A DNA stretch of 51,811 nucleotides from sequence record LT961732; one strand, written 5' to 3'. The DNA comes from Escherichia phage SECphi27. Made by a program: the position numbers and the translations under genes. The notes below the pieces were generated by a model. That model ran no database searches, was not told where the DNA came from, and saw nothing but the letters and a program-made list of their open reading frames with translations. Below are positions 16,117 through 34,590 of the stretch, piece after piece; within the stretch, counting starts at the first letter, position 1, and every line of letters starts with the position of its first letter.

Positions 16117-16308
16117 ATGCAATTGCCACCATTTGACAAAAAAAGCGAAGAGATTGCCAAAACTGCATGTCACCTTCGAGACCTTGCCGACATGATAGAG
16201 CGCGGTCAGGTCATGATTGTCAATATGACGATTAAAAGCGAGAATAGAAATTTCAAGGTTTTAAGCGAGACAACAGAAATTACTGTCTTGAAAGCAAGAG
16301 GTGAATAA
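16117..16308 (+). CDS. hypothetical protein
   Basis: 63-aa ORF. Confidence 0.45.
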   Translation: MQLPPFDKKSEEIAKTACHLRDLADMIERGQVMIVNMTIKSENRNFKVLSETTEITVLKARGE

Positions 16309-19121: not shown

Positions 19122-19250
19122 ATGGATGAGTACAAACAACCTTCGCAATGGTGCAAAGAGAAGCAGGAGGAAGCACTTGAGCGCGGAGATGTAGAAGAAG
19201 CTATGAACTATTTCAAACTTGCGGAAGAATGGAAGGGGAGAGGGTACTGA
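19122..19250 (+). CDS. hypothetical small protein (about 42 aa)
   Basis: Not in ORF track; AAGGTGA RBS; stop overlaps next start. Confidence 0.4.
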   Translation: MDEYKQPSQWCKEKQEEALERGDVEEAMNYFKLAEEWKGRGY

Positions 19251-19480
19251 TGTTCGGCATGAACGAGGCGCAATTCAACGCAGCTAAACGCCAGGCTAAA
19301 AAGTGCGGCGAGGCAATGAAAGCGGATGTGGAAAAGCGCGGGAAGTATGTTGATGAAGTAATGAAGGGCATCATTGCAGAACACTACCAGCCAATCGCGC
19401 CAATGTTGACGATCACTCAATTCATTTGGCTATGTGGTTACTTGCGTGGACGTTGGGGGAACGCTTTCGACAGGGAATGA
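19250..19480 (+). CDS. hypothetical protein
   Basis: Start moved to ATG overlapping upstream stop. Confidence 0.45.
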   Translation: MFGMNEAQFNAAKRQAKKCGEAMKADVEKRGKYVDEVMKGIIAEHYQPIAPMLTITQFIWLCGYLRGRWGNAFDRE

Positions 19481-19509
19481 TTGACAACTCTTTCCTGATT
19501 GGTTAGCAT
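19481..19509 (+). promoter_or_regulatory. sigma70-like promoter (TTGACA, 17 nt, TAGCAT) preceding a structured leader
   Basis: ttgacaactctttcctgattggttagcat; followed by about 130-nt leader with hairpin and T6 at 19571-19629. Confidence 0.5.
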
Positions 19510-19643
19510 GGCGTCGTTTACATAAGAGCGGCTTAGTCCGAACGCGTGACGCGATAGTCACACAACAACGGCGATATGCAGGAGGTTTTTTGCAACGCAA
19601 AATAATCCATAAGACGTATCGCCTTTTTTAATGGAGATCCAAA

Positions 19644-19877
19644 ATGATTAAATACAAATTAACCGTTTCTTTCCGTGATACCGTTATTCATCCTTTCCTA
19701 AAGAGCTTCGTTAAATGCTTTACGGTAGAGGCGACAGAGGGTCAGCTAGACGGTAACGAAACTTGCATTTCTATCGGTAATGTTGCTTACCCGATTCACA
19801 ACATTACCAGCATTAAGCGTGAGGTTGTCGCTGATGAATTACAAAGTGAAGATGACGATCCGGCGAATGGGGCGTAA
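19644..19877 (+). CDS. hypothetical protein
   Basis: 77-aa ORF; GGAG RBS. Confidence 0.5.
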   Translation: MIKYKLTVSFRDTVIHPFLKSFVKCFTVEATEGQLDGNETCISIGNVAYPIHNITSIKREVVADELQSEDDDPANGA

Positions 19878-20019
19878 TTGCCAATCATGCAAACAGGAAT
19901 ATGAATGCGTAGTTGATGCTCTTGATGAACTGGAAGCAGTAGCAAAAGCAAAAGAGCAATCGGGCGCTAATCCTGAAACACATCAATTTTCAATTAATCT
20001 TGTGAGGGCTTTACAATGA
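19867..20019 (+). CDS. hypothetical protein (start uncertain)
   Basis: ORF track 19780-20019; several in-frame ATGs. Confidence 0.35.
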   Translation: MGRNCQSCKQEYECVVDALDELEAVAKAKEQSGANPETHQFSINLVRALQ

Positions 20020-20240
20020 TCGCATTATCTTTCTGCATTGGTTTTATCATGGCTATCATTATCTTTTCCGTTGTCATGCGCTTTGCTTATAAGTTCGTGA
20101 TTAATAAAGGTTGGTACGCTTCTGCCATCTGGAGCGAAAAACAAAAGAAATGGCTTGTACGTGGTCAATACCTGATGATCGGCAGCAAGATCCTAAATTC
20201 CATTCGAGCCAAAGATGGAAAAGTAAAATATACAGCTTAA
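20016..20240 (+). CDS. small membrane protein
   Basis: N-terminal TMD (IALSFCIGFIMAIIIFSVV); ATGA overlap. Confidence 0.5.
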   Translation: MIALSFCIGFIMAIIIFSVVMRFAYKFVINKGWYASAIWSEKQKKWLVRGQYLMIGSKILNSIRAKDGKVKYTA

Positions 20241-20245
20241 AAATT

Positions 20246-20270
20246 ACCCGCCGCACGGCGGGTTTTTTAT
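20246..20270 (+). terminator. Intrinsic terminator
   Basis: cccgccg-cac-cggcggg hairpin followed by T6. Confidence 0.65.
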
Positions 20271-20281
20271 TGCCCGTTGTC

Positions 20282-20290
20282 TGGTATAAT
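20282..20290 (+). promoter_or_regulatory. Extended -10 promoter (TGgTATAAT) upstream of terS
   Basis: tggtataat about 28 nt upstream of terS ATG; no obvious -35. Confidence 0.45.
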
Positions 20291-20318
20291 CAGGCATCTA
20301 ACCAAAGGAGGATTAATA

Positions 20319-20846
20319 ATGGCTAAAAATGTTGAGCCTGCTGTAAAGGCATTAAATTTCAAAGAGTTATACAATAAAACTTATGGCGATATTGTCACGC
20401 TAAACAACCGCCACAAGTACACGCCGGAACAGGTTTTTGATATGGCGATCCGCTATTTCACTTGGGCCGAAGAGAATCACATCCAGGCGGCTGAAACTGC
20501 TTCCTTTCAGGGTGACGTGTACGAGAGCAGAGTTTACAAGCCTCGCGTTTTCACGGTTAACGGATTCAGCTTGTATCTCGGCGTGACTGAGGCTGCCGTA
20601 AGCAAATGGCGTAAAGAGCCTGGATTCTGCGATGTGATGGAGTTTGTTGATAAAGTAATTTACGAGCAAAAATTCCAGCTTGCGGCAAATAACATGATTA
20701 ACGCTGGATTTATCGGTAAAGAGATCGGAGTAGAGAAGCCAGCAACAGTGAGCGTTGAAGCTAGCTCGGCAGCTAATGCAAGCATTGACGCAGTAACTGC
20801 CGATGAGGTGAAAGAGGCTGTTATTGATATTCTGGAGCAACTTTAA
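20319..20846 (+). CDS. terS: terminase small subunit
   Basis: About 175 aa immediately upstream of terL with overlapping stop/start; strong RBS AAGGAGG. Confidence 0.7.
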   Translation: MAKNVEPAVKALNFKELYNKTYGDIVTLNNRHKYTPEQVFDMAIRYFTWAEENHIQAAETASFQGDVYESRVYKPRVFTVNGFSLYLGVTEAAVSKWRKEPGFCDVMEFVDKVIYEQKFQLAANNMINAGFIGKEIGVEKPATVSVEASSAANASIDAVTADEVKEAVIDILEQL

Positions 20847-22414
20847 TGATCATATGGGAAGATTTGACGGCGGCGCAAAAGCGAGCCATTAAAGAAATCA
20901 GTGAGCATTCATTCGAAAAGATGATCAGAATCTGGTTTCAGTTATTGCAGGGGCAAAAATTCCAGAGCAACTGGCATTTTAGCTTATTGTGCAGTGAGGT
21001 AGAGAAAATCATCAATGGAGAGTCGCAGAATGTTATTTTCAACATTACGCCAGGTAGCGGTAAGACTGAGATTTTCTCGATCCACATGTCACCCTACGCG
21101 TCATTGAAAAGTCGTAAGGTGAGAAACCTTAACCTTTCGTTTAGTGATGGACTTGTCCAGCAAAACAGCAACAGGATAAAGGAGATTATCGGTTCTCCTG
21201 AGTGGCAAGAGCTATGGCCAGGAAAACTGGCAAAGGCGAGCGCAAAAGATCTCATAGTTACGGATGGCGGCAAGGTTAAATTGCAAGTTAACTCACGTTC
21301 TATTGGCGGACAGGTAACAGGTTTGCGTGGCGGCTATATGGATGATGGTTTTACTGGTATGCTGGTTCTGGACGATCCAGACAAGCCTGATGATATGCTT
21401 TCTAAGGTCAAGCGTGAGGCGATCCACATGAGGTTAAAAAACACAGTGCGTTCTCGTCGAATGAAAGACACCACGCCAATTGTTATGGTGCAACAGCGAC
21501 TACACGTTAATGATTCCACCTGGTTCATGCTTAATGGCGGGATGGGCGGTATTGAGTTTAAAGTTGTGAGCATTCCTGCGCTGGTTACGAAAGAATACCG
21601 CGAAACGCTTCCTGATTGGTTGAAGCCTGAATTTGATCGTGATGTGTTGTCAAGTAAGCCAGTGATGATAGATGGAGTTGCTCATTATTCATTTTGGCCT
21701 GCAAAGGAAAGCGCGGAGGAATTGCTTGCATTGCGCAATGCAGATCCTTACACGTTCGCCAGCCAATACCAACAACAACCCATCGCGCTTGGCGGCAACG
21801 TGTTTAAAACAGAGTGGTTCCAGTATTACGGCAGCGGCGAAAAATGCGCACTTCCTAAACCGGATCGCTTTGAATACACATTTATTACTGGAGATACAGC
21901 ACAGAAGGCCGGAGAGCTTAACGACTATTCAGTTTTTTGTTATTGGGGGATGTATAAAAATCGCGTTTACTTCATTGATGGCATTCGCGGCAAGTGGGAA
22001 GCGCCAGATCTTGAATTAAATTTTATTGCCTTCGTTAATCAGTGCTGGAAGCGCAATAAGGAGTGTGGCAGCTTGCGACGTATTCACATTGAGGATAAGG
22101 CCAGCGGCACGGGTTTGATTCAGGGGGCCAAAAAGAAGATCCCGATTGATATAAATCCCGTTCAGCGAAGCAATGACAAGGTAACGCGAGCAATGGACGC
22201 CGCGCCAGTAATGAGGGCAGGACGTGTGGCACTGCCAGAAAGTCATCCCATGTTACCTGAGATACTGGCAGAGGTTGCAGCGTTCACTTTTGACGATTCT
22301 CATCCCCATGATGATATTGTCGATAATATAGTTGATGCTGTTAACGTCGAAATGAACTTGGCAGATGATCCGGTAGCAAGGATGAAAAAGCTGGCTGGTC
22401 TACGCAATAAATAG
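20846..22414 (+). CDS. terL: terminase large subunit
   Basis: 522 aa; ATPase-like motifs (PGSGKTE; VLDDPD) and C-terminal nuclease-like acidic residues; gene order terS-terL-portal. Confidence 0.85.
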   Translation: MIIWEDLTAAQKRAIKEISEHSFEKMIRIWFQLLQGQKFQSNWHFSLLCSEVEKIINGESQNVIFNITPGSGKTEIFSIHMSPYASLKSRKVRNLNLSFSDGLVQQNSNRIKEIIGSPEWQELWPGKLAKASAKDLIVTDGGKVKLQVNSRSIGGQVTGLRGGYMDDGFTGMLVLDDPDKPDDMLSKVKREAIHMRLKNTVRSRRMKDTTPIVMVQQRLHVNDSTWFMLNGGMGGIEFKVVSIPALVTKEYRETLPDWLKPEFDRDVLSSKPVMIDGVAHYSFWPAKESAEELLALRNADPYTFASQYQQQPIALGGNVFKTEWFQYYGSGEKCALPKPDRFEYTFITGDTAQKAGELNDYSVFCYWGMYKNRVYFIDGIRGKWEAPDLELNFIAFVNQCWKRNKECGSLRRIHIEDKASGTGLIQGAKKKIPIDINPVQRSNDKVTRAMDAAPVMRAGRVALPESHPMLPEILAEVAAFTFDDSHPHDDIVDNIVDAVNVEMNLADDPVARMKKLAGLRNK

Positions 22415-22430
22415 CACTAATTGCTAAAAA
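22412..22430 (+). promoter_or_regulatory. Conserved intergenic motif (variant TAGCACTAATTGCTAAAAAG), forward class
   Basis: Begins with TAG stop of terL; followed by tatataat. Confidence 0.5.
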
Positions 22431-22443
22431 GTTATATAATCAA

Positions 22444-22468
22444 GGCTGGATTTTTCCAGCCTTTTTAT
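22444..22468 (+). terminator. Intrinsic terminator-like hairpin between terL and portal
   Basis: ggctgga-tttt-tccagcc followed by T5. Confidence 0.5.
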
Positions 22469-22483
22469 TATGGAGATTTGACG

Positions 22484-23776
22484 ATGAGCGAAAAAACAAG
22501 GCTAGTTAAGGCCGATGGATACAACGAGATTTTCAAGGGTAGTAATGGCAATGGGCGTGTAGAGTTGCCTTTCTTTATGCAGGGGTTCGAATACACCACG
22601 CACGCTGATTTTTACATTCGTGACGGCCTAGCAAAACGAATCATCGACGTTGTTCCAGAAGAAATGGTGACGCCTGGATTTAATATTGATGGCGTGGAAG
22701 ATGAGGAAAGTTTTAGATCTTTGTGGGATGAGAAGCGACTAAACGATAAAATCATTGATGCGCTTTGCTGGTCGCGTCTTTTTGGTGGCGCTGCAATCGT
22801 GGCAATCGTCCAGGATGGCAGGTCGTTAAAGTCACCTGTAGCGCCTGGTGCAATCCTTGAAGATGTTCGCGTTTACGATCGCTTTCAGGTTAGGGTAGAA
22901 AAGCGCGAAACTAATCCACGCAAGGTAAGATATGGTGAGCCATTAATTTACACCATTTCACCTGGTGTCGACTTGCCAGAATACCAGGTTCACTATTCGC
23001 GAGTCTGTATTATCGACGGTGAGCGGCTACCAAATCAGCGGCGTCAATCAAATGATGGGTGGGGTGAGTCGATCCTGAATAAGGGACTTGTTGAGGCTAT
23101 TTGTGATTATAACTACTGCGAAAACTTAGCAACTCAATTGTTGCGACGTAAGCAACAGGCGGTATGGAAAGTTAAAGGTCTTGCTGATCTTTGTGATGAT
23201 GATGATGGTGTTAGTGCCGCACGTTTGCGACTTGCTCAAGTTGATGATGAGGGTGGCGTAGGCCGTGCGATCGGCATTGATGCGGAAGATGAGGAATATG
23301 ATGTTTTAAATTCTGATATTTCTGCCGTCGATTCGTTCTTGGAAAAGAAGATGGATCGCATTGTATCTCTTTCCGGCATCCATGAAATCATCCTCAAAAA
23401 CAAGAACGTTGGCGGTGTTAGCGCGAGCCAAAACACGGCGCTTGAAACCTTCTACAAGCTGATCGACCGAAAGCGAAAGGAAGAATACAAACCAATCCTT
23501 GAATTTCTGATCCCGTTCCTTATTCAAGAGGAAGAATGGAGCATTCAGTTTGCGCCGTTAAGCGTTCCAAGCGAAAAGGACCAGGCCGAAATCTTGAACA
23601 AGAACATTGATTCTTTGAGTAAGGCTATTGACGGTCAATTCATGGATGCAGAAGAGGCGCGCGACACATTGCGAGCCATTGCGCCTAACGTTAAACTAAA
23701 AGACGGCAATGACATTAAATTACCTGAGCAAGACGTAGAGCCGGAGCCAGGAACAACCGAGGGTAGCAATCAATGA
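22484..23776 (+). CDS. portal protein
   Basis: About 430 aa directly after terL; acidic C-terminus; start moved to ATG after GGAG. Confidence 0.8.
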   Translation: MSEKTRLVKADGYNEIFKGSNGNGRVELPFFMQGFEYTTHADFYIRDGLAKRIIDVVPEEMVTPGFNIDGVEDEESFRSLWDEKRLNDKIIDALCWSRLFGGAAIVAIVQDGRSLKSPVAPGAILEDVRVYDRFQVRVEKRETNPRKVRYGEPLIYTISPGVDLPEYQVHYSRVCIIDGERLPNQRRQSNDGWGESILNKGLVEAICDYNYCENLATQLLRRKQQAVWKVKGLADLCDDDDGVSAARLRLAQVDDEGGVGRAIGIDAEDEEYDVLNSDISAVDSFLEKKMDRIVSLSGIHEIILKNKNVGGVSASQNTALETFYKLIDRKRKEEYKPILEFLIPFLIQEEEWSIQFAPLSVPSEKDQAEILNKNIDSLSKAIDGQFMDAEEARDTLRAIAPNVKLKDGNDIKLPEQDVEPEPGTTEGSNQ

Positions 23777-24528
23777 TAGTGAAAGGCGTCGTTAAACAAT
23801 GGCGCTTTCCTGAAGCAAGTGAGCGGCAATTGCGCCGCTCAATTCAGGAGGCGATAAGGGATCTTGTTGTGCTGATGCGCAGCAAAACAAAGGAAATGAA
23901 ATTTGACGCGGACACCGAAGAAATCAACGCCGCAGAGGATGAGATTAGTAGCTTCGCGTTAAAGCTAATAGCTGGCATCGCCGCATCACTTCCGGCTATC
24001 GGTCTTGCTGTTTATAAATTCAACGCGAAGCAATTTATTAACGTAGCCAAATCAACGGGAGGCAAGTCAAATTCAGCCGTTATCATCCTTATGGCTATTG
24101 GGGCCAATGCGAATGAGAGTTGGTATAGGACGCTATACGGTCAATGGCATGACATGACGATCGCATCTCTTCAAAAGCTATTTGGAAACATCGTGTCTGA
24201 CTGGTCAACCAATATTAGATTGGCAAACTTTCGCGGAATGAGAGATAGCCAGGTTAATGAATTGGCTGGTAAGAGGTTCGCAGTGTATAGCTCTTGGGGT
24301 AAGACAAGGGCGGAAAACATCATAGGCGCTTGGAATAGTAGACTCATGCGCCAGCGTCTTTATGATTCAAAAGTAACTCATTATTTTTGGCATGGTATGC
24401 TTGATGACAGAGAGCGATTGCAGCATGTACAATGGGAAGGTAAGCGCATTGCGCTAGATTCTGAACATGATTTTCCTGGTGAGCCTTTCGGTTGTCGTTG
24501 TTGGGCCATACCAGATTGGAACAGTTAA
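23773..24528 (+). CDS. head morphogenesis / minor capsid protein (SPP1 gp7 or Mu F-like)
   Basis: 251 aa immediately after portal with ATGA overlap. Confidence 0.6.
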   Translation: MIVKGVVKQWRFPEASERQLRRSIQEAIRDLVVLMRSKTKEMKFDADTEEINAAEDEISSFALKLIAGIAASLPAIGLAVYKFNAKQFINVAKSTGGKSNSAVIILMAIGANANESWYRTLYGQWHDMTIASLQKLFGNIVSDWSTNIRLANFRGMRDSQVNELAGKRFAVYSSWGKTRAENIIGAWNSRLMRQRLYDSKVTHYFWHGMLDDRERLQHVQWEGKRIALDSEHDFPGEPFGCRCWAIPDWNS

Positions 24529-24538
24529 GAGGTATTAA

Positions 24539-25654
24539 ATGAAGGCAAAACAAAGATTTGATAGCGCCAAAGTAAAGGCGCACTTTGATGATAACGGGTT
24601 TTTAGTTGATCGCCCTATCGTGGCGCGAATTGGTTTACAAGTCTATCAGACTCCTTTTGGTGAGCGCCGAGAATTTCGCCCTGCGTCAGAAGTATTCAAG
24701 GCCGACTCGCTCGCCACATTTGCAGGGAAGCCGGTCACGGTTGGTCACGTCACGGTAACTCCAGAAAACGCCGAAAAGGTTGTAGTTGGTTCTTGTGCTG
24801 GCGCTGGTGTGCCGAACGGGATCGGCGTAGAGGTTCCGTTAAGCATTTACTCAAAACGAGCAATCGAAAGCGCAAAGAAGCGAGACACGGCGGAAATTTC
24901 AGTTGGTTATACATCGGTTGATATTGATAAACCAGGCTGGGGCAATAATAAAACTGGTGAGTACGTTTTCGATGAGGACGTTAGCGAAGACTGGAAACCT
25001 GATTCTCCTGATTGGGTTAAGTTTGATGCAATCCAGACTGAAATCAAGGTAAACCACATCGCGTTAGTTTTCCGAGGTCGAGCTGGCATTGCAAAATTAA
25101 ACCTTGATAGCCAGCAAGATTTTCCGTATAGTGACGACGTTATTAACAACAAAGAGGATCAAATCATGATTGTAAAAATTAAACTGGATGGCGCTGTAGA
25201 GTTTGACGTGCCGAAAGCGGTTGCGGATCACATTGAATCACTGAAAGCTGATACCAAAGCGCAGAAAGAAAAGGCTGACAGCCTGGAAGCTGAGCGAGAC
25301 GCACTGAAAACCAAAGTAGATGGCATTCAGGATCAGATTGATGCCGCAGTCAAGAAGGCCAAAGAAGATGCCGAGCAATATGCTCAATTAGTGGCAGACG
25401 CTAAAGAGTTAGGCATCAAGTGCGACGGCCTGGATGCGAAAGCAATCAAGGTTGCATGCATCAAGGAAGTTATGGGCAATGACGTTTCTGATAAAACTGA
25501 TGCCTATATCGAAACAGCTTTCGACATCGCCAAAAACTCTGATAAAATGGCGGCGCAGCGTAAGAGCATTAAAGGTGACTCTTTCGCGAATGAAAAGCAG
25601 GATGACGCAGGTTCTAAGCTGAATCCTAACGCTCGTTTTGAGAAACTGAAATAA
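24539..25654 (+). CDS. capsid scaffolding protein
   Basis: 371 aa; long charged coiled-coil C-terminal half; located between portal/morphogenesis and capsid genes. Confidence 0.6.
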   Translation: MKAKQRFDSAKVKAHFDDNGFLVDRPIVARIGLQVYQTPFGERREFRPASEVFKADSLATFAGKPVTVGHVTVTPENAEKVVVGSCAGAGVPNGIGVEVPLSIYSKRAIESAKKRDTAEISVGYTSVDIDKPGWGNNKTGEYVFDEDVSEDWKPDSPDWVKFDAIQTEIKVNHIALVFRGRAGIAKLNLDSQQDFPYSDDVINNKEDQIMIVKIKLDGAVEFDVPKAVADHIESLKADTKAQKEKADSLEAERDALKTKVDGIQDQIDAAVKKAKEDAEQYAQLVADAKELGIKCDGLDAKAIKVACIKEVMGNDVSDKTDAYIETAFDIAKNSDKMAAQRKSIKGDSFANEKQDDAGSKLNPNARFEKLK

Positions 25655-25666
25655 GGAGTAATTAAA

Positions 25667-26176
25667 ATGGCTAAAATTGGAGCAAGTTATTTTGACACTA
25701 TGGCGCGTGCGCTTCCTGGTCAGGTATCCGACACGTCTGCATATAACATCGACGGCGCCTGCGTTCTTGACAAGGAAGACGGCATCCCAATCCTGGTTGG
25801 CGTGGCTGTTAAGCTAAAAGGCGTTGACTCAATGGGTAATAAGCTGATCGACGCTATTTCTGGTAGTGGTGATGTTCCTTATGGCGTTGGCATCCGTTCG
25901 CACTTTCAAACTACGGCTGATAATGGACGAATGGTTTATGAGGCTGGCGGCGGAATCAACGTTATGACAGAGGGCCGCGTTTGGATGGTTGGCGATGATA
26001 CCGACAAGAGCAAAAAACCATCGTATCGTGAGCCTGTAAAAATTGATGAAAACACTGGCAAGGTGAAAAGTGCTGGCACTATCAATACCAACTGGATTTA
26101 CACGGGAGATAAAACCACATTTGGAACTGGCGATGGTGTGTTGACTTTGTTTGAAGTTCAGGTCTTCCCAAGCTAA
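25667..26176 (+). CDS. head auxiliary/decoration-like protein (paralogue 1)
   Basis: 169 aa; shares YNIDG and TEGRVWMV-type segments with the next gene. Confidence 0.5.
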   Translation: MAKIGASYFDTMARALPGQVSDTSAYNIDGACVLDKEDGIPILVGVAVKLKGVDSMGNKLIDAISGSGDVPYGVGIRSHFQTTADNGRMVYEAGGGINVMTEGRVWMVGDDTDKSKKPSYREPVKIDENTGKVKSAGTINTNWIYTGDKTTFGTGDGVLTLFEVQVFPS

Positions 26177-26182
26177 AATTAA

Positions 26183-26208
26183 GGCGCTCGCTTGAGCGCC
26201 TTTTTTAT
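26183..26208 (+). terminator. Intrinsic terminator
   Basis: ggcgctc-gctt-gagcgcc followed by T6. Confidence 0.65.
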
Positions 26209-26226
26209 TATGTAAGGAGAAATGAA

Positions 26227-27015
26227 ATGGCTAAAGATTATTCATCTGTTATGGGTCTTTCTTGCCCTGGTTGTTTGGTTGATTCTACTCGCTACAATAT
26301 TGATGGAACTGGTGTTTGCGGATCTGAGTCGATCATTGCTGGCAAGGTTGTTTTCTTCAAAGAGAGAGTAGAAGGTTATAACATATTTGTTGATCAAAAA
26401 GAGGATGATGCAGTAGTTGCTGGTATTGCGCTAAGGAGCAACATAACAACAACAGTTAACCAGGATGGCGGCTACTCTGACTACAAAGAAGGTGATCCTA
26501 TTAGCGTTGTAACTCGTGGTCGCGTGTGGGTGTTAACTGAAAGTATTGATGAAGCTCCTTCACACGGTGAAAAAGTATATGTTAATAACGATGGATTTGT
26601 TGGTAAGTCCGGCGACCAGGTTGTTGATGGGTGGATTTTTACAGGTGATTTTATGAAATTTGACAGTAGCATTAACATTGTAGGGATTCATATCAAACCT
26701 GTAATAGTACATGTTCAAAAGTTAACAGCGGCTATTATTGAAGATGTTGATGGTAACAAGCCTGATGGAAACAGACCAAACAATGAGCCTGTTAATCTAA
26801 AGGTTACTGTAGATCCTGAATATGCAACAGATAAAACTGGAACATGGGAGATTTCATTAGGAGGAGAATACGCATCAATTTCGCCAAGTGGTGACACGGC
26901 GCAAGTAACGCCATCAAGCAATGGTGATGTATATGTAAACTGGGTGGCAAATGACGGATCTGGTGTATCTGACACATTTATCATCAACTTTGTAGATCCA
27001 GAGCCTGGCCCTTAA
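26227..27015 (+). CDS. head auxiliary/decoration-like protein (paralogue 2) with C-terminal Ig-like domain
   Basis: N-terminus paralogous to 25667-26176; C-terminal Ig-like (Big_2-type) segment. Confidence 0.5.
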   Translation: MAKDYSSVMGLSCPGCLVDSTRYNIDGTGVCGSESIIAGKVVFFKERVEGYNIFVDQKEDDAVVAGIALRSNITTTVNQDGGYSDYKEGDPISVVTRGRVWVLTESIDEAPSHGEKVYVNNDGFVGKSGDQVVDGWIFTGDFMKFDSSINIVGIHIKPVIVHVQKLTAAIIEDVDGNKPDGNRPNNEPVNLKVTVDPEYATDKTGTWEISLGGEYASISPSGDTAQVTPSSNGDVYVNWVANDGSGVSDTFIINFVDPEPGP

Positions 27016-27033
27016 CATAAAAACATCTTGCAC

Positions 27034-27054
27034 GTTTAACAAAAAGTGCTATCA
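27034..27054 (-). promoter_or_regulatory. Conserved intergenic motif, inverted class, upstream of major capsid gene
   Basis: Plus strand reads gtttaacaaaaagtgctatca, the reverse complement of the motif, although flanking genes are on plus strand. Confidence 0.55.
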
Positions 27055-27057
27055 TCT

Positions 27058-27085
27058 AGGCCGTTACATTTAACGGCCTTTTTTA
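27058..27085 (+). terminator. Intrinsic terminator immediately upstream of capsid gene RBS
   Basis: aggccgtta-catt-taacggcct followed by T6. Confidence 0.6.
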
Positions 27086-27098
27086 TGGAGGAAGCAAA

Positions 27099-28070
27099 AT
27101 GGCTAAAAAATATGATGAACTAGATGCTACGATTGTAGCGAATCATTTGCAGATTCAGGGTGTCAAGACCGACGCTTCTGATATGGGTATTTGGACCGCT
27201 CAAGAGCTACACAAGATCCGCTCAACCGCATACGAGAAAGAATATCCGGCAGGTTCCGCGCTTCGCGTATTCCCTGTAACAAACGAGCTTTCTGATACTG
27301 ATAAGACTTTTGAGTATCAGACTTTTGATAAGGTTGGCTACGCGAAAATTATCGCCGACTACACCGACGATCTGCCGACCGTGGACGCGCTGATGACTTC
27401 TGAATTTGGCAAGGTGTTCCGCCTGGGTAACGCTTTTCTGATCTCCATTGATGAGATTAAAGCAGGTCAGCGAACTGGCAAGAGCCTGTCAACTCGCAAG
27501 GCTAACGCCGCGCAAAATGCACATGATCAGCTGATTAACTTCCTGGTGTTCAAAGGTTCCAAGCCTCATAAGATCGTTTCCGTTTTCGATCATCCTAACC
27601 TTACGAAAATTGTTTCTAAAGGATGGATGAGCCAGGATGGAAACACCAAGTTCCCTGATGTGGCAAGCGATGAACTGGAGGCTGCAATCGAAACGATCGA
27701 GGAAGTAACCAAAGGTCAGCACCGAGCGACTAACATCCTGATCCCGCCGTCCATGCGCAAAGTCCTGACGGTTCGAATGGAAAATACCACTGAAAGTTAT
27801 CTGGAATACTTCCAGAAGCAAAACGGCGGCATCACTATCGACTCTATCGCAGAGCTTGAGGATATTGACGGCAAAGGTACTAAAGGTTGCTTGGTTTACG
27901 AAAAAGATCCAATGAACATGAGCATTGAGATTCCAGAAGCGTTTAACATGCTTCCGGCGCAGCCAAAAGACCTTCATTTCAAGGTTCCTTGCACTTCCAA
28001 GTGTACTGGCCTTACGATTTACCGTCCGTTTACGATGGTGCTTATTACTGGCTTGAAAAAGTCAGTTTAA
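27099..28070 (+). CDS. major capsid protein
   Basis: 323 aa; follows scaffold; strong RBS GGAGG; bracketed by terminators. Confidence 0.75.
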   Translation: MAKKYDELDATIVANHLQIQGVKTDASDMGIWTAQELHKIRSTAYEKEYPAGSALRVFPVTNELSDTDKTFEYQTFDKVGYAKIIADYTDDLPTVDALMTSEFGKVFRLGNAFLISIDEIKAGQRTGKSLSTRKANAAQNAHDQLINFLVFKGSKPHKIVSVFDHPNLTKIVSKGWMSQDGNTKFPDVASDELEAAIETIEEVTKGQHRATNILIPPSMRKVLTVRMENTTESYLEYFQKQNGGITIDSIAELEDIDGKGTKGCLVYEKDPMNMSIEIPEAFNMLPAQPKDLHFKVPCTSKCTGLTIYRPFTMVLITGLKKSV

Positions 28071-28081
28071 TTAGATAACAT

Positions 28082-28110
28082 GGGGAGCCTTAAGGGTTCC
28101 CCTTTTTTTA
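28082..28110 (+). terminator. Strong intrinsic terminator after major capsid gene
   Basis: ggggagcc-ttaa-gggttcccc (one G-U pair) followed by T7. Confidence 0.75.
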
Positions 28111-28127
28111 TTTACGGAGTACACAAA

Positions 28128-28394
28128 ATGAGCAAAAACTTAAAACTTAAAGTAACTGGCGTTTGCATGATCATTATGAACGGTAAGCGTTATCATCCTG
28201 GTGATGAAATTGAAATTGAATCCGATCGCATTAATGATTCCGCAATTGAATACCTGATCGCTCGCGGCGATGTGGAAGTTAAAGACAATTCCGAAATTAA
28301 CGAGCAAATCAAGGAGAAAGCGGAGAAGAAGCGCAAAAAAGATCCTGCAGAGGGCAAGAGCCGCAAAGAGCTAGAGGATGGCGGCGAATATTAA
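28128..28394 (+). CDS. hypothetical head-associated protein
   Basis: About 88 aa; Lys/Glu-rich C-terminus. Confidence 0.5.
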
Positions 28395-28440
28395 TAATTG
28401 GGGCGCTTATGCGCCCCTTGTCATATCTGGAGAAAACAAA

Positions 28441-28860
28441 ATGGTAGATGAATTTTACACAGACGCTGAAATCGTTCAGCAAATCGTAAAGTTGGCCCCA
28501 CCAATGCAGCAGGTTGATCCCGATTTAATTGTGGCATGGATTGAGCTTGCTAAAGAATTTGTTTGCAAAAAACGGTTTAAAAACTCATACCCGAAAGCGG
28601 TTGCGCTTTACACTCTTCACCTTATGACCTTAGACGGGGCAATGAAACAGGAAGGTGAAAGCGTAGAAAGCTACTCCCGCCGCGTTGCTTCGTTCACTCT
28701 GACTGGTGAGTTTAGTCAGACGTTTGATAGAATTTCTTCCGATGCAAGCGGAAAGCAGATCCGACAAACGCCGTGGGGCAAAGTGTACGAAGTGTTAAAC
28801 CGTAAGCACGGTGGCGGCTTTGGCCTTGTAACTGGATTGCGCCGGAGATGTTGCCGATGA
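28441..28860 (+). CDS. head-tail connector / head completion protein
   Basis: Position between capsid and tail genes; start moved to ATG after GGAG. Confidence 0.5.
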
Positions 28861-29231
28861 ACTACAATGAGATTGCAAGAATGGCTACGGCTGGGATTAA
28901 CTTTTTCAGCGACGCTAACGGTATGTTTAAGTGCATCACGCAGCAGGGAGGGGTTGAGATTATCGGCGGAGAGGAAGTTACCAAGCCGGAGATTTCAGTG
29001 ATGATAAAGGGGCTTGTTAGATCCCCGAAAACTAGAGAGGTTGACGGTGAAACAATCAGAGTAACCGACAAGTTGGGGATATTCACCAATGAAACTGAGA
29101 TCAAAAATGGTTATCAGATTGAAATTGATGGCGATCGTTACGTTGTCGTTGAAGCAAGACCAGTCAGGCAGACTAACATCACGGCAGCTTATCGTCCGAT
29201 ATTAAGGAGGATTGCAGTGCATGGCGGATAA
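28857..29231 (+). CDS. head-tail joining protein
   Basis: ATGA overlap; position. Confidence 0.5.
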
Positions 29232-29664
29232 TTATAAGATCAGGGAATTTCACGGTGATATAAGCAGGTGGATTGATTCAGTAAGCAGCGGCCTTGTTGA
29301 TTGCGTTGAAATGTTCGCGACAAACGTCCACGAGGATCTTGTAAAGCGTTCGCCAGTTGATACGGGCCGATATAAAGCTAACTGGCAGGTAACAGCAAAC
29401 AAGCCGCCGCTATATGCTCTCAATCAATACGATCGCGATGGTAGTAAAACAATTGCAGAAGGCAAGCGAGCAATATATGCAATCATGCGGGGCGGTGGCG
29501 CGGTGCGGTCAATCTATTTTTCAAACATGCTTATTTACGCCAATGCGCTTGAATACGGGCATTCAAAACAAGCGCCGTCCGGCGTGCTGGGAATCGTGGC
29601 GGTAAAGCTGCGATCCTATATGACTAAGGCAATAAAGGATTCGAGGGCAAAAAATGCACTATGA
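29221..29664 (+). CDS. tail completion / neck protein
   Basis: About 147 aa; overlapping gene train. Confidence 0.5.
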   Translation: MADNYKIREFHGDISRWIDSVSSGLVDCVEMFATNVHEDLVKRSPVDTGRYKANWQVTANKPPLYALNQYDRDGSKTIAEGKRAIYAIMRGGGAVRSIYFSNMLIYANALEYGHSKQAPSGVLGIVAVKLRSYMTKAIKDSRAKNAL

Positions 29665-30055
29665 TTTAATGTTAGCGGCAAGAAAGGCGCTGGCGGAGGA
29701 ATATGAATCACGATTCAAGATCGCCTATGAAAACGTTGATTTTGTTCCGCCTGGTGATGGTTCGATGTGGTTAAAATTTGACTACATGGAAGCCGACACA
29801 GATCGCATATCTCTTGATAGAAAATGCGTTTCTTATATCGGATTGGTTCAGGTTGGAATTGTTATGCCTCCTGGCGGCGGCACTGATAAAGCGCGTTTGC
29901 TGGCTAAAGAGATTGCGAGATTTTTCTATGATGGTAGAATGTTTGAAACTGGCTATATTAGCGAGGGGGCAAACGTCCACGCATTACTAAAAAGTGAAAC
30001 AGGTTGGTTCTTACCGATCCGTTTCAGTGTTAGGCTTGACACAAAGGAGGAATAA
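29654..30055 (+). CDS. tail terminator-like protein
   Basis: 133 aa immediately upstream of major tail gene. Confidence 0.45.
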   Translation: MHYDLMLAARKALAEEYESRFKIAYENVDFVPPGDGSMWLKFDYMEADTDRISLDRKCVSYIGLVQVGIVMPPGGGTDKARLLAKEIARFFYDGRMFETGYISEGANVHALLKSETGWFLPIRFSVRLDTKEE

Positions 30056-30057
30056 TA

Positions 30058-30720
30058 ATGCACTTGCCTAATGGTTCTCAAATTTTCATCGGCGTTAATA
30101 TGGGTGAGCCAATTAGCGCAACTCAAATCACCAATGCTGATAATCCTGTTTTTACAGCTACAAACACTCAAAGCATCAAAAAAGGCGCTTATGTTCTTAT
30201 TGAAACATCTTCTTGGGGCAAACTTGTTAGTCGAGTGCTTCGAGTTAAGGAAGTATCAGATAACGTAAGTGTTACTCTTGAAGGTGTTAGCACTAAAGAT
30301 ACAAACGTATTTCCAGAAGGAGAGAACACAGCAACTTTCCGAGAAGTGAAATCTTGGGTGGAGGTTCCTTGCGTACAGGATCTTGCGCAGGACGGCGGCG
30401 AGCAACAGTATTACACTTATCAGTGTTTGGCTGATGACCAGGAGCAGCAGTTACCGACCTACAAGAGCGCGGTTTCTCTTACCTACACTTTCGCTCATGA
30501 ATATGATAACCCGATTTATCCGATCTTGCGCGAGGCTGAGGAATCCGGCGACGTAACCGCTTTGCGTATGTACGTGCCGAAAGCTAAAGAGATGCGTTGC
30601 TGGGCTGGCGTATTGTCTTTTAATGACATTCCGCAAACAACTATGAACGAAATGGAAACTGTTTCCCTTTCTGTATCTCTGAAAGGCCGATTCACGTTCT
30701 TACCTTCCGACGTTAAGTAA
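30058..30720 (+). CDS. major tail protein
   Basis: 220 aa; followed by strong terminator, then chaperone pair and tape measure. Confidence 0.7.
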   Translation: MHLPNGSQIFIGVNMGEPISATQITNADNPVFTATNTQSIKKGAYVLIETSSWGKLVSRVLRVKEVSDNVSVTLEGVSTKDTNVFPEGENTATFREVKSWVEVPCVQDLAQDGGEQQYYTYQCLADDQEQQLPTYKSAVSLTYTFAHEYDNPIYPILREAEESGDVTALRMYVPKAKEMRCWAGVLSFNDIPQTTMNEMETVSLSVSLKGRFTFLPSDVK

Positions 30721-30725
30721 AACAA

Positions 30726-30747
30726 GGGGCGTTGCGCCCCTTTTTTC
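30726..30747 (+). terminator. Intrinsic terminator after major tail gene
   Basis: ggggcg-ttgc-gcccc followed by T6. Confidence 0.75.
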
Positions 30748-30786
30748 ATTCCTGTAAAATCAATCTATCAAATAAATTAATTCCAC

Positions 30787-30805
30787 TTTTAACAAAAAGT
30801 GCTAT
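30787..30805 (-). promoter_or_regulatory. Conserved intergenic motif, inverted class, directly upstream of chaperone RBS
   Basis: Plus strand reads ttttaacaaaaagtgctat followed by AAGGAG and ATG 30820. Confidence 0.55.
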
Positions 30806-30819
30806 AAGGAGATCTTAAG

Positions 30820-31137
30820 ATGGCAAAGATGAAACTAACGTTAGGCCCACTGCCTGATTTTAAGCTGCCTGTTTCTTTCGTGCTTCCAAATGGTGATGAG
30901 CAAGTTATTGTTTTTACCGTGCGCCACAAGAAGGCAAGCGAAATTCACGAACGATACACGGCAGAAAAGCCGATGAGCGACGTAGAAATGATCACCTTCC
31001 TTGCTTCCGGTTGGGATCTGGAAGATGAATTTAACGAGGAAAACGTTGCTAAATTGCTGGATTATTACCCGTCTGCGTCATTATCGCTGACTGGTCATTA
31101 TATGAAAGCACTTGCGGGGCAGCGGGTAAAAAACTAA
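30820..31137 (+). CDS. tail assembly chaperone (G-like)
   Basis: 105 aa between major tail and tape measure; ends at slippery site. Confidence 0.7.
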   Translation: MAKMKLTLGPLPDFKLPVSFVLPNGDEQVIVFTVRHKKASEIHERYTAEKPMSDVEMITFLASGWDLEDEFNEENVAKLLDYYPSASLSLTGHYMKALAGQRVKN

Positions 31138-31454
31138 AGCGGGCGGTTTACCTGTTTTACCTCAAGCCGCCAACTGACGCACAATTAGAGGCCGTCGGCC
31201 TATCCCGTTCAGACTACGAAGGGGAGGATCCGCCGGAGGTAATTTTTGATGAATCAATGTTTCAATCTTGGGATCTATTTTGCGCCATGCAGACGCAATG
31301 GAGATCGACTAGCGGCAGTGTGTATGGGTTCGACTATAACGTTTTGCCTATGCTTTTTGACATTTACAAGATTGAGGATCGGGAGATGGCGCTAAATGAT
31401 TTGCGCATCATGGAACAAAAGGCGCTAGAAATGATTCATTCAAACAAAACATAA
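31128..31454 (+). CDS. tail assembly chaperone -1 frameshift extension (T-like)
   Basis: Slippery heptamer A_AAA_AAC at 31128-31134 just before the G stop; the -1 frame is open from 31128 to 31454. Confidence 0.65.
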   Translation, partial: KKLKRAVYLFYLKPPTDAQLEAVGLSRSDYEGEDPPEVIFDESMFQSWDLFCAMQTQWRSTSGSVYGFDYNVLPMLFDIYKIEDREMALNDLRIMEQKALEMIHSNKT

Positions 31455-31476
31455 GCGCCGAGAGGCGCTTTTTTAA
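31454..31476 (+). terminator. Intrinsic terminator-like hairpin before tape measure gene
   Basis: agcgcc-gaga-ggcgct followed by T6. Confidence 0.55.
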
Positions 31477-31493
31477 TATCTGGAGGTTTTAAA

Positions 31494-34175: not shown

Positions 34176-34528
34176 TAATGAAGCTGGATCAGTTTAAGTG
34201 GTGTACGCAGGTTCAGAACGGCGGCGGGTCCATGACGTCATCAAATAACGATCGAGAGATTGCATTCGGTAACGGATACACACAGGTAGCATCTGGAGGC
34301 TTTAACACAATCCGGCGAGAGTTTAGCATTGTTTACGCTGGGCTTGATTACAGAGATGTTGTCAAGTTCCTGAATGAGCACAGGCTAAAACCTTTCTTGT
34401 GGATCATGCCAGATGGAAGCCCTGGATTGTTTAGGGTTAAAAGCGGTAGCGTCGGGCTTACCCCATTGTCGCCAACCGTTCAGGAAGTAAAAGCCACTTT
34501 TACGGAACAATTTACATCAATGCAGTAA
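34172..34528 (+). CDS. minor tail protein (lambda gpM-like)
   Basis: 118 aa; ATGA overlap with tape measure gene. Confidence 0.55.
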   Translation: MIMKLDQFKWCTQVQNGGGSMTSSNNDREIAFGNGYTQVASGGFNTIRREFSIVYAGLDYRDVVKFLNEHRLKPFLWIMPDGSPGLFRVKSGSVGLTPLSPTVQEVKATFTEQFTSMQ

Positions 34529-34532
34529 TTTA

Positions 34533-34558
34533 AAGCCGCCTTTGTGCGGCTTTTTTCT
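34533..34558 (+). terminator. Intrinsic terminator
   Basis: aagccgc-ctttgt-gcggctt followed by T-run. Confidence 0.6.
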
Positions 34559-34590
34559 TGATGTTACAATGAGCAAAAAGGAGGTAGAAA

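What the first reader, a model, noticed from the sequence alone, without database searches (positions are those of the whole stretch)
19481..19643. sigma70-like promoter followed by a 130-nt structured leader with terminator-like hairpin
This is the longest intergenic gap inside the plus-strand accessory block. It begins with TTGACA, 17 nt, TAGCAT immediately after the upstream stop codon, and the leader ends in a long-range stem (ggcgata...tatcgcc) followed by T6 just before the RBS of the 19644 gene. This looks like an attenuator, riboregulator or small RNA rather than a simple spacer, and it lacks the otherwise common conserved motif.
Basis: seen in the sequence. Interest (0 to 1): 0.4.

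Follow-up and report, generated by a model that had tools for sequence, protein, structure and literature searches.

The report
Conserved structured small RNA of T1-like phages
The gap holds a previously unannotated, promoter-driven, folded non-coding RNA of about 113 nt that is conserved, with compensating base changes, across the whole family of T1-like phages, so it is a real RNA element rather than spacer, although what it does is still unknown.

Summary
TTGACA, 17 nt, TAGCAT (19481-19509) is followed by a 128-nt untranslated stretch ending in a long hairpin (19570-19623) plus T6, just before the RBS of the 19644 gene.

The window is a Warwickvirus (Drexlerviridae). A homologous unit lies at the same place in every complete relative examined: 78 of 79 IMG/VR loci (the other is truncated), plus T1, Tlsvirus, Webervirus, Rogunavirus and Loudonvirus. 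That place is after a conserved 76-aa gene and upstream of a CxxC gene, DUF7299 and terS.

- **Promoter:** geometry is fixed, with a 17-nt spacer in 77 of 77 regex-parsed loci and a 6-7 nt discriminator.
- **Structure:** three stems show compensatory changes (95% of cells paired against 23-52% in slid controls; 12 of 22 pairs change on both sides).
- **Strand:** a U·G wobble dominates one pair, so the fold exists only in plus-strand RNA.
- **Known families:** no match in Rfam, E. coli genomes or plasmids, and the 2024 TLS re-annotation does not list it.

Most likely it is a discrete ~113-nt RNA ended by a leaky terminator, which also serves as leader of the three small downstream genes. Trans-acting versus cis-acting function is unresolved. 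It is a new RNA family of a known kind. Interest 0.6.

The parts
19250..19480 (+). Upstream 76-aa gene (phrog_303; labelled 'ipe' or 'putative fusion protein' in some records). It is the conserved left-hand neighbour of the element. Its stop codon abuts the -35 hexamer.
   Evidence: tblastn finds it in 833 phage records. Function is unknown. The AF2 single-sequence model has pLDDT 57 and is uninformative.
19481..19486 (+). -35 hexamer TTGACA.
   Evidence: It reads TTGAC(G/A/T) in 76 of 77 related loci.
19495..19502 (+). CTGATTGG octamer inside the promoter spacer, ending 1 nt before the -10. It may be a protein-binding site.
   Evidence: CTGAYYGG is present in the spacer of 73 of 77 loci. The same octamer is 6- to 11-fold over-represented genome-wide in the window, T1 and PKP126.
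19504..19509 (+). -10 hexamer TAGCAT, 17 nt after the -35.
   Evidence: It fits TAnnnT, and the spacer is exactly 17 nt, in 77 of 77 loci representing 41 distinct promoter sequences.
19510..19515 (+). Discriminator. This is the only poorly conserved stretch of the gap.
   Evidence: It is variable in the alignment. Its length is 6-7 nt in all loci.
19516..19528 (+). Predicted transcription start (G19516) and conserved single-stranded 5' tail GUUUACAUAAGAG.
   Evidence: Conservation resumes exactly here. The family consensus is GU-N-N-A-C-A-N-A-A-G-A-G. It is unpaired in folds of 30 or more relatives. The start site is inferred, not measured.
19529..19540 (+). Stem-loop A: CGG / CCG, 3 bp in the window and 4-5 bp in relatives.
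   Evidence: At least 8 different arm sequences across the family all form the hairpin. All 5 pairs show changes on both sides in the model-fitted alignment.
19546..19561 (+). Stem-loop B: GUGAC, loop GCGAUA, GUCAC, preceded by the conserved AACG.
   Evidence: 100% of cells are paired and 4 of 5 pairs have compensatory changes (GUGAC/GUCAC, GUGGC/GCCAC, GUAGC/GCUAC, CCAG/CUGG and others).
19562..19569 (+). Conserved single-stranded linker ACAACAAC, made of AAC repeats.
   Evidence: Nearly invariant in the class I alignment. Its role is inferred only; an Hfq distal-face type A-R-N motif is one possibility.
19570..19623 (+). Stem-loop C, the terminator hairpin. It has a 9-10 bp base (GGCGAUAUGC / G-A-CGUAUCGCC), an inner helix GGA/UCC, an inserted hairpin UUUUGC-AAC-GCAAAA, and the conserved CCAUAAGAC motif (CCGUAAGAC in relatives).
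   Evidence: dG -17.1 kcal/mol, z -3.9. 99.7% of cells are paired and 6 of 10 pairs have compensatory changes. U·G is the commonest pair at columns 67/106, so the helix exists only on the plus strand.
19624..19629 (+). U6 tract directly after stem C. This is the predicted 3' end of a roughly 113-nt RNA.
   Evidence: By reading the alignment, all 31 class I sequences carry 4-9 T here. The length varies between near-identical phages, which argues against coding.
19633..19636 (+). RBS (GGAG) of the first downstream gene, 7 nt before ATG 19644.
19644..20240 (+). Three small genes that can only be reached by read-through of stem C/U6: a 77-aa ORF (19644-19877), a 50-aa CxxC ORF (19867-20019, phrog_2919), and a 74-aa DUF7299 membrane-type ORF (20016-20240).
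   Evidence: The first gene is lineage-specific. The CxxC gene follows the element directly in Webervirus, BEK7, L053, L061 and L114.
20246..20269 (+). Strong intrinsic terminator that closes the unit: ACCCGCCGCACGGCGGGT followed by T6. It is followed by the extended -10 promoter TGGTATAAT (20282-20290) of terS (ATG 20319).
   Evidence: It is annotated as a terminator in phage Sip and as T28 in TLS.

Best explanation
The gap is a transcription unit for a structured non-coding RNA that is conserved throughout Drexlerviridae.

**Proposed mechanism**
- Host sigma70 RNA polymerase starts at about G19516, from TTGACA-17-TAGCAT.
- The nascent RNA has a 13-nt single-stranded 5' tail, two short hairpins (A and B), an AAC-rich linker, and a long branched hairpin (C).
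- Hairpin C is followed by U6, which acts as an intrinsic terminator. Most transcripts therefore end as a discrete RNA of about 113 nt.
- The fraction that reads through becomes the mRNA of the three small genes 19644-20240, up to the strong terminator at 20246.
- The same hairpin also stops transcripts coming from the upstream operon.

**What is shown and what is inferred**
- Shown: the conserved promoter geometry, the RNA secondary structure with covariation, its strand, its fixed genomic position, and its absence from known families.
- Inferred: the start site, the efficiency of termination, and the function.

**Functional guess.** The released RNA probably binds a partner (a host or phage RNA, or a protein) through its conserved unpaired segments: the 5' tail, loop B, and the CCGUAA motif. 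I judge this more likely than not to be its main role, but it is unproven.
For: **Identity and spread**
- The window is a Warwickvirus.
- The same unit lies after the same gene in 78 of 79 IMG/VR loci found through that gene; the other locus, L059, is truncated.
- It is also present in T1, Tlsvirus, Webervirus, Rogunavirus and Loudonvirus.

**Promoter**
- The spacer is 17 nt in 77 of 77 loci, the -35 is TTGAC(G/A/T) in 76 of 77, the -10 is TAnnnT, and the distance to the conserved 'GU' is 6-7 nt. These cover 41 distinct promoter sequences.
- The only variable stretch of the gap is the untranscribed discriminator.

**Structure**
- RNAalifold finds 10 of 13 pairs compensatory.
- For the named structure on an unbiased MAFFT alignment of 31 sequences, 95.0% of cells are paired, against 23-52% when partners are slid. 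Twelve of 22 pairs change on both sides. The covariation score is 0.334 against 0.03-0.11, and 0 of 500 shuffles reach it.
- On the wider model-fitted alignment, 17 of 22 pairs change on both sides.

**Strand.** U·G is the commonest pair at one position of stem C, and G·U variants occur elsewhere. These would be C·A mismatches on the minus strand.

**Selection.** Window versus morffagbaw: the RNA is 84.6% identical, while third codon positions of the flanking genes are 66% and 46% identical.

**A discrete product is plausible**
- The hairpin has dG -17.1 kcal/mol and z -3.9, and is followed directly by U6.
- By reading the alignment, all 31 class I relatives keep a U-tract.
- In Webervirus the RNA is cut down to the 5' tail, stem A and a GC hairpin plus U-tract, about 60 nt in all.
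- In Rogunavirus, Loudonvirus, L106 and L085, tRNA genes sit directly after the last hairpin. RNase P processing would release the RNA there.

**Independence from the next gene.** Similarity to the 'Campylobacter'/BEK7 phages stops within or just after the hairpin, and at least four different gene families follow the element.

**One copy per genome.** This holds in the window and in T1.
Against: - No transcript data exist: no RNA-seq, 5' end or 3' end has been measured.
- Tlsvirus, T1 and several other lineages keep the RNA but have no U-tract after the last hairpin. There it is a 5' UTR unless it is processed. This argues that the family-wide function does not depend on termination, and it favours a cis role.
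- The unit is always followed by same-strand genes with an RBS only a few nt after the hairpin, as expected for a leader.
- The -10 hexamers are non-consensus (TAGCAT, TATCGT, TAACGT and others).
- The 5' tail has no better complementarity to phage translation-initiation regions than shuffled tails do (best -11.6 kcal/mol against a shuffled mean of -12.1).
- Host targets could not be scanned.
- The hairpin loop is too large for the simple terminator scan to report it.
Confidence: 0.6

Rival explanations
1. Purely cis-acting leader. The conserved RNA acts only on its own transcript or its own polymerase. Options include:
- an attenuator that sets the expression level of the CxxC/DUF7299 cassette;
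- a binding site for a phage protein, in the manner of a nut site;
- a put-like RNA that makes RNA polymerase terminator-resistant, so that it passes stem C/U6, the 20246 terminator and the many terminators of the late region.
For: - The position is fixed, about 0.75 kb upstream of terS, in all subfamilies.
- Same-strand genes always follow, and their RBS lies a few nt after the last hairpin.
- Tlsvirus and T1 lack a U-tract, so there the RNA is a 5' UTR.
- Several unpaired segments are conserved, not only one seed. This is more typical of a protein- or polymerase-binding RNA.
- The late region 20-37 kb has at least 9 strong same-strand intrinsic terminators. The TLS re-annotation found very few promoters there (PMC11447400).
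- An octamer is conserved between the -35 and -10, the place where the lambda Q-binding element lies (the lambda comparison is from established knowledge).
Against: - No mutually exclusive antiterminator pairing was seen by inspection, nor in the consensus fold.
- There is no Rfam riboswitch or leader match.
- terS has its own promoter right after the 20246 terminator.
- tRNA genes inserted directly after the RNA in four lineages would cut the RNA off the nascent transcript. That is hard to reconcile with a tethered put- or nut-type mechanism.
- Model R1 does not hit the HK022 put regions.
- No Q- or N-like protein was recognised among the neighbours.
- The gene immediately downstream is not conserved.
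Confidence: 0.27
2. Ordinary operon boundary. Stem C/U6 is just the terminator of the upstream operon, and TTGACA-17-TAGCAT is just the promoter of the downstream genes. The sequence in between has no function of its own.
For: - T1-like genomes are built of short transcription modules bounded by terminators (PMC11447400).
Against: - The order is promoter then terminator, not terminator then promoter as at terS.
- Stems A and B and the 5' tail are not needed for either signal, yet they are conserved with compensatory changes across subfamilies.
- Lineages without the U-tract still keep the RNA.
- The RNA is more conserved than synonymous sites of the flanking genes.
Confidence: 0.05
3. DNA-level element, such as a pac site, a replication origin or a protein-binding array, rather than an RNA.
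For: - It lies near the packaging genes.
- It contains the genome-wide over-represented octamer CTGATTGG.
Against: - Wobble pairs are tolerated only in the plus-strand sense (U·G is the majority pair at one position), which points to RNA and not to a DNA cruciform.
- There is no GC-skew switch nearby; the switch is at about 11 kb.
- In T1 the terminal repeat is at 1-2800 and the element at about 7.6 kb.
- A promoter with fixed geometry precedes it.
Confidence: 0.04
4. Coding sequence: a small ORF, or an N-terminal extension of the downstream gene. The latter is how it is annotated in slyngel gp06, herni gp51 and pSf-1 gp57, whose CDS starts at the AUG inside stem C.
For: Those three records annotate a 303-nt CDS starting at locus position 927-929.
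Against: - The T-run varies from 5 to 9 nt, and the hairpin carries an 18-21 nt indel between close relatives. Both shift the reading frame.
- There is no RBS before that AUG.
- Substitutions are paired across stems rather than showing codon periodicity.
- Most records annotate the short form.
Confidence: 0.02

Closest known systems
Hfq-type trans-acting small RNAs of enterobacteria and their phages (for example RybB or OmrA/B with 5'-end seeds; prophage DicF, IsrK)
   Same: - It has its own sigma70 promoter.
- Its length is about 60-115 nt.
- It has a conserved single-stranded 5' end followed by hairpins.
- It has a Rho-independent terminator with a U tail.
- It has an A-A-C repeat linker.
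   Different: - There is no sequence or model match to any of them.
- Several unpaired regions are conserved, not only one.
- Some lineages lack the terminator.
- It is encoded by virulent phages, directly in front of genes that need read-through.
- No target has been identified.
Lambda PR'-6S RNA-tR' unit (a short constitutive transcript terminated upstream of the late genes unless Q modifies the polymerase)
   Same: - A constitutive-looking promoter is followed about 110 nt later by an intrinsic terminator.
- The unit lies just upstream of small genes and then the terminase and structural genes.
- A conserved element sits between the -35 and -10.
   Different: - No Q homologue was recognised.
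- The transcript itself is structurally conserved with covariation; the lambda 6S RNA is not known for that.
- terS has its own promoter.
- Many relatives have no terminator at this point.
HK022 put RNAs (cis-acting, promoter-proximal two-hairpin RNAs that make RNA polymerase terminator-resistant)
   Same: - It is promoter-proximal.
- It has two short conserved hairpins.
- Terminators lie downstream on the same strand.
- No dedicated protein is apparent.
   Different: - The covariance model finds no similarity to the put regions.
- It carries an additional long hairpin and a 13-nt 5' tail.
- tRNA genes are inserted right after it in some lineages.
Phage T4 small stable RNAs (species 1 and 2, rnaC/rnaD), co-transcribed with the tRNA cluster; function unknown
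   Same: - It is a structured phage RNA of unknown function.
- It shares a transcription unit with tRNA genes, in Rogunavirus, Loudonvirus, L085 and L106.
- It could be released by tRNA processing.
   Different: - In the window and most relatives there is no tRNA, and the 3' end is made by a terminator or not at all.
- No homology was tested or is expected.

Membership tests
Any Rfam 15 family | Covariance-model match at or near the gathering score | tested here: not met
   There are no gathering-score hits in the window. With E up to 10 on 19300-19800, only two chance hits outside the element appear. In ten related loci only tRNAs and chance hits appear.
Trans-acting Hfq-type sRNA | Own promoter and a defined 5' end | tested here: inconclusive
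   The promoter consensus and its geometry are conserved in 77 of 77 loci. No transcript mapping is available.
Trans-acting Hfq-type sRNA | Rho-independent terminator with a U tail as 3' end and Hfq-binding module | tested here: met
   In the window the hairpin has dG -17.1 kcal/mol and is followed by U6. All class I relatives keep 4-9 U, read from the alignment. This is not met in Tlsvirus or T1.
Trans-acting Hfq-type sRNA | Conserved single-stranded seed with complementary targets | tested here: inconclusive
   The 5' tail is conserved and unpaired. No phage target stands above the shuffled background. Host genomes could not be scanned.
Trans-acting Hfq-type sRNA | Binding to Hfq or ProQ and regulation in trans | not testable with these tools
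   This needs co-immunoprecipitation or RIL-seq during infection.
Transcription attenuator / riboswitch | Intrinsic terminator between the promoter and the regulated gene | tested here: met
   Stem C plus U6 ends 3 nt before the RBS of the 19644 gene (GGAG at 19633).
Transcription attenuator / riboswitch | Conserved alternative (antiterminator) pairing that excludes the terminator | tested here: not met
   None appears in the consensus fold. Candidate pairings examined by eye do not covary: loop B with the 3' arm, and the 5' tail with the CCGUAAGAC loop. This is my reading of the alignments, not a formal test.
Transcription attenuator / riboswitch | Leader peptide or known aptamer | tested here: not met
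   No ORF is conserved, because indels shift the frame. There is no Rfam aptamer hit.
put-like processive antiterminator RNA | Promoter-proximal hairpins upstream of same-strand terminators | tested here: met
   Stems A and B lie at +14 to +46. Terminators lie at 19624, at 20246, and at 9 or more sites in 20-37 kb.
put-like processive antiterminator RNA | Sequence or structure relatedness to HK022 putL/putR | tested here: not met
   Model R1 on the whole HK022 genome gives one weak hit (E 0.06), on the wrong strand inside the holin gene.
put-like processive antiterminator RNA | Increase of terminator read-through in cis, dependent on the RNA polymerase beta' zinc-binding domain | not testable with these tools
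   This needs reporter or in vitro transcription assays.
Lambda Q / PR'-type late control | A Q-family antiterminator gene next to the promoter | tested here: not met
   The neighbouring proteins match only families of unknown function (phrog_303, phrog_2919, DUF7299). There are no hits to Q families.
tRNA / tmRNA | Cloverleaf detected by ARAGORN | tested here: not met
   No tRNA or tmRNA is found in the window.

The most novel reading that the evidence does not exclude
The RNA is a family-wide phage device that acts on the host transcription or RNA machinery.

One version is a put-like RNA that stays with the polymerase that made it and carries it through the chain of same-strand terminators into the late genes of T1-like phages. 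This might work together with a factor that recognises the CTGAYYGG octamer in the promoter spacer.

The other version is an early host-takeover RNA that sequesters or redirects a host factor.
Probability: 0.15. Interest if true: 0.85.

Novelty: new member of a known kind. Interest (0 to 1): 0.6.

Why it matters
T1 is one of the classical coliphages, and its relatives (Drexlerviridae) are among the commonest E. coli and Klebsiella phages in therapy collections and in laboratory contaminations. Their gene regulation is still almost unknown.

The 2024 re-annotation of TLS found only three sigma70 promoters. Among its open questions it asked how these phages shut off host synthesis, and what their intergenic repeats do (PMC11447400).

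A promoter-plus-RNA unit that is conserved in every subfamily, shows textbook covariation, and sits just before the packaging genes gives a concrete, easily testable handle on that regulation. It is also a new candidate family for Rfam.

There is a practical annotation point too. Several deposited genomes start a CDS inside the RNA.

Tried and rejected
- **Rfam.** Gathering and permissive searches on the window and on ten relatives found nothing except tRNAs in relatives.
- **tRNA/tmRNA scan of the window.** None found.
Not significant, and so not used as evidence.
- **Host mimicry.** blastn of the gap against all complete E. coli genomes and against PLSDB plasmids gave no match and one chance match respectively.
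- **Second copy in the window.** The R1 hit at 27011-27096 (E 0.0045) is only a promoter, terminator and RBS look-alike.
- **Phage targets of the 5' tail.** RNAduplex against 140 translation-initiation regions did no better than shuffled tails.
- **Tertiary pairings (5' tail with the CCGUAAGAC loop; loop B with the 3' arm or the CCGUAA motif).** The variable positions do not covary. This is my reading.
- **The long-range helix UAGAC/GUCUG predicted in Webervirus.** It is broken in L100, L107 and L090 without compensation.
- **Origin of replication.** There is no GC-skew switch here.
- **pac site.** The T1 terminal repeat is elsewhere.
- **Neighbouring proteins.** Pfam, PHROGs, NCBIfam and PDB sequence searches gave only unknown-function families. 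The word-index homologue search gave 3 near-identical hits. The AF2 single-sequence model was low-confidence (pLDDT 57), so no fold search was run.
- **HK022 put similarity.** None.
- **Literature.** Eight full-text searches found no description of an RNA at this locus, and no transcriptome of a T1-like phage. The T1 genome paper is not held.

Full report
**What is in the sequence.** The finding sits between a 76-aa ORF (19250-19480; the start was corrected from the alignment) and a 77-aa ORF (19644-19877).

- TTGACA 19481-19486 lies directly after the stop codon, followed by a 17-nt spacer and TAGCAT 19504-19509.
- GGCGAUAUG 19570-19578 pairs with CGUAUCGCC 19615-19623, followed by T6 at 19624-19629.
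- GGAG is at 19633-19636 and the ATG at 19644.

Taken alone, this is not statistically striking. Promoter-like sites are not enriched in the region (21 against 15.5 +/- 4.2), and folding 19481-19650 gives z = -0.35. Limited to the predicted transcript (19516-19629), z is -2.3. For the hairpin alone, dG is -17.1 kcal/mol and z is -3.9. ARAGORN and Rfam find nothing.

**Where the window comes from.** The region is 96-98% identical to many Escherichia phages of the genus Warwickvirus (Drexlerviridae, Tempevirinae). It is 74-80% identical to Hanrivervirus. terS (ATG 20319) and terL (20846-22414) follow about 0.7 kb downstream.

**Conservation.** An alignment of 21 distinct relatives shows that the gap is better conserved than the gene after it.

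- The -35, the spacer and the -10 are almost invariant.
- The 6-7 nt after the -10 are variable.
- Conservation resumes at CGUUUACAUAAGAG. This is the pattern expected for a promoter, an untranscribed discriminator and a functional transcript starting at about G19516.
- Against phage morffagbaw, the RNA is 84.6% identical, while third codon positions of the flanking genes are 66% and 46% identical.
- Similarity to one group of phages (BEK7 and the 'Campylobacter' records) ends within or just after the hairpin. There, and in Henuseptimavirus, a different gene follows the T-run. The element is therefore not tied to the 19644 gene.

**Family-wide distribution.** The upstream gene occurs in 833 phage records, covering Escherichia, Klebsiella, Shigella, Salmonella, Citrobacter and others.

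- Downstream of it (one gene further along in T1), the same kind of unit is present in T1, Tlsvirus, Webervirus, Rogunavirus and Loudonvirus.
- Of 79 IMG/VR loci fetched through that protein, 78 carry it and one is truncated.
- In the 77 loci that a regular expression can parse, the spacer is 17 nt in all, the -35 is TTGAC(G/A/T) in 76, the -10 is TAnnnT, and the distance to the conserved GU is 6-7 nt. This holds over 41 distinct promoter sequences.

The RNA is modular. Its parts are a conserved 12-13 nt 5' tail (GU..ACA.AAGAG), hairpin A, AACG, hairpin B with a GCGAUA-like loop, variable hairpins, and a last hairpin carrying a CCGUAA motif. The 3' end differs by lineage.

- In Warwick-, Hanriver- and Henuseptimavirus a U-tract follows.
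- In Webervirus a minimal ~60-nt form ends in a GC hairpin plus U-tract.
- In Tlsvirus and T1 there is no U-tract.
- In Rogunavirus, Loudonvirus, L106 and L085, one to six tRNA genes lie directly after the last hairpin.

**Structure.**

- On a plain MAFFT alignment of 31 class I sequences (A2), RNAalifold predicts stems B and C, with 10 of 13 pairs compensatory.
- For the structure I named (stems A, B and C), 95.0% of cells are standard pairs, against 23-52% when the 3' partners are slid by 1-3 columns. Twelve of 22 pairs change on both sides. The covariation score is 0.334 against 0.03-0.11, and no shuffle out of 500 reaches the observed values.
- A covariance model built from it (R1) recovers Tlsvirus, T1 and other distant members at E 1e-5 to 1e-11. 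It finds a single true copy in the window and in the whole T1 genome.
- On the wider alignment, which is fitted to the model and therefore leans towards it, 17 of 22 pairs change on both sides, including all five pairs of stem A.
- Independent single-sequence folds of 33 representatives give the same two 5' hairpins and an unpaired tail in nearly all of them.
- U·G is the majority pair at one position of stem C, and G·U variants occur at others. These would be C·A on the other strand, so the structure belongs to the plus-strand transcript.
- This also argues against a DNA-level element. So do the absence of a GC-skew switch and the position of the T1 terminal repeat.
- It is not coding. The T-run varies from 5 to 9 nt and the hairpin has an 18-21 nt indel among close relatives. 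Three deposited genomes nevertheless start the downstream CDS at the AUG inside stem C.

**How it probably works.** The layout is promoter, then structured RNA, then hairpin plus U6, then RBS. This is the reverse of the terminator-then-promoter layout seen at terS. It predicts a short primary transcript of about 113 nt. Read-through supplies the mRNA for 19644-20240, which ends at the strong terminator at 20246. Three independent ways of making a 3' end just after the last hairpin (terminator, minimal terminator, tRNA processing) suggest that a discrete RNA is the product. That is why I rank the stand-alone RNA plus leaky terminator first, at 0.6.

The main rival is a purely cis-acting leader (0.27).

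- In its favour: lineages without a U-tract, the constant presence of downstream genes, several conserved unpaired segments, and the many same-strand terminators of the late region.
- Against a tethered put- or nut-like mechanism: the tRNA insertions, the terS promoter, and the lack of similarity to HK022 put.
- Against a classical attenuator: no conserved alternative pairing was found.

**Comparison with what is known.**

- Nothing matches in Rfam 15.
- There is no homologue in E. coli chromosomes or plasmids.
- The 2024 TLS re-annotation lists three sigma70 promoters and 21 terminators, and none of them is this unit. Its T28 is the terminator before terS.
- Full-text searches found no transcriptome of a T1-like phage and no RNA described here.
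- The element works like a phage sRNA/leader, with analogies to Hfq-type sRNAs with 5' seeds, lambda PR'-6S-tR', HK022 put and the T4 small stable RNAs. It is not a member of any of these families.

**Limits.**

- There are no expression data.
- The start site, the termination efficiency and the function are all inferred.
- Host targets could not be scanned.
- The neighbouring proteins are of unknown function.

**Verdict.** It is a new RNA family of a known kind. Interest 0.6.

Noticed in passing
window, 26 sites (for example 2076, 9812-, 11117-, 19495, 21612, 25008, 43028, 46619, 51481); also L122 (T1) and L123 (PKP126): The octamer CTGAYYGG occurs 26 times against 3.95 +/- 1.97 expected.

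Apart from words that are pieces of the known 21-nt repeat (and TATATATA in T1), CTGATTGG or CTGACTGG is the most over-represented 8-mer in three divergent Drexlerviridae genomes:
- window: 13 and 8 copies observed, against 1.9 and 1.6 expected;
- T1: 11 and 15, against 2.2 and 1.7;
- PKP126: 15 and 9, against 1.4 and 1.7.

It lies on both strands, mostly inside genes, often in frame as Pro-Asp-Trp. It also sits just upstream of the -10 in the element's promoter and in two repeat-type promoters.

Function is unknown.
   Followed up: partly

It occurs 20 times against 1.6 expected. [quoted passage not shown]

It corresponds to the 21-nt direct repeat reported for TLS, T1 and Rtp, whose function is still open (PMC11447400).
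   Followed up: partly
window 20246-20321: A strong bidirectional terminator (ACCCGCCGCACGGCGGGT plus T6) is immediately followed by an extended -10 promoter TGGTATAAT (20282-20290) and the terS start at 20319.

The ORF lister's TTG start at 20277 is probably too far upstream.

The same terminator-then-promoter layout is seen before terS in L069, L101 and L112.
   Followed up: partly
window 20000-37000, + strand: At least nine strong intrinsic terminators lie in the direction of transcription inside the late (structural) region: 20246, 22442, 26181, 27058, 28082, 30724, 31453, 34532 and 36667.

Most are followed by TTTATTAT-like sequence. How late transcription passes them is unknown.
   Followed up: no
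window 27011-27096: This stretch holds an inverted copy of the 21-nt repeat and a promoter-like TTGCAC-17-TATCAT. A terminator hairpin (GGCCGTTACATTTAACGGCC plus T6) follows directly after the -10, and then the RBS of the 27099 gene.

It gave a weak hit with model R1 (E 0.0045) but is not homologous to the element.
   Followed up: partly
L041 1526-1601, L042 1631-1708, L106 1802-1886, L085 1610-2254: In Rogunavirus, Loudonvirus and two IMG/VR lineages, tRNA genes are inserted exactly after the last hairpin of the RNA element, in the same transcription unit. They are tRNA-Arg CCU or UCU, and in L085 a cluster of six tRNAs.
   Followed up: partly
L018 927-1229, L023 927-1229, L024 929-1231: Salmonella phage slyngel gp06, phage herni gp51 and Shigella phage pSf-1 gp57 are annotated with a start codon inside stem C of the RNA. 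This is probably a mis-annotated N-terminal extension of about 23 codons.
   Followed up: yes
window 16117-16308: A 63-aa ORF with a good RBS fills a roughly 200-nt stretch that is left unannotated in phage tiwna.
   Followed up: partly
MG065xxx 'Campylobacter phage' records (for example L025): About 20 unverified 'Campylobacter jejuni phage' GenBank records are Tempevirinae coliphage-like genomes that carry this element. Their host assignment looks doubtful.
   Followed up: no
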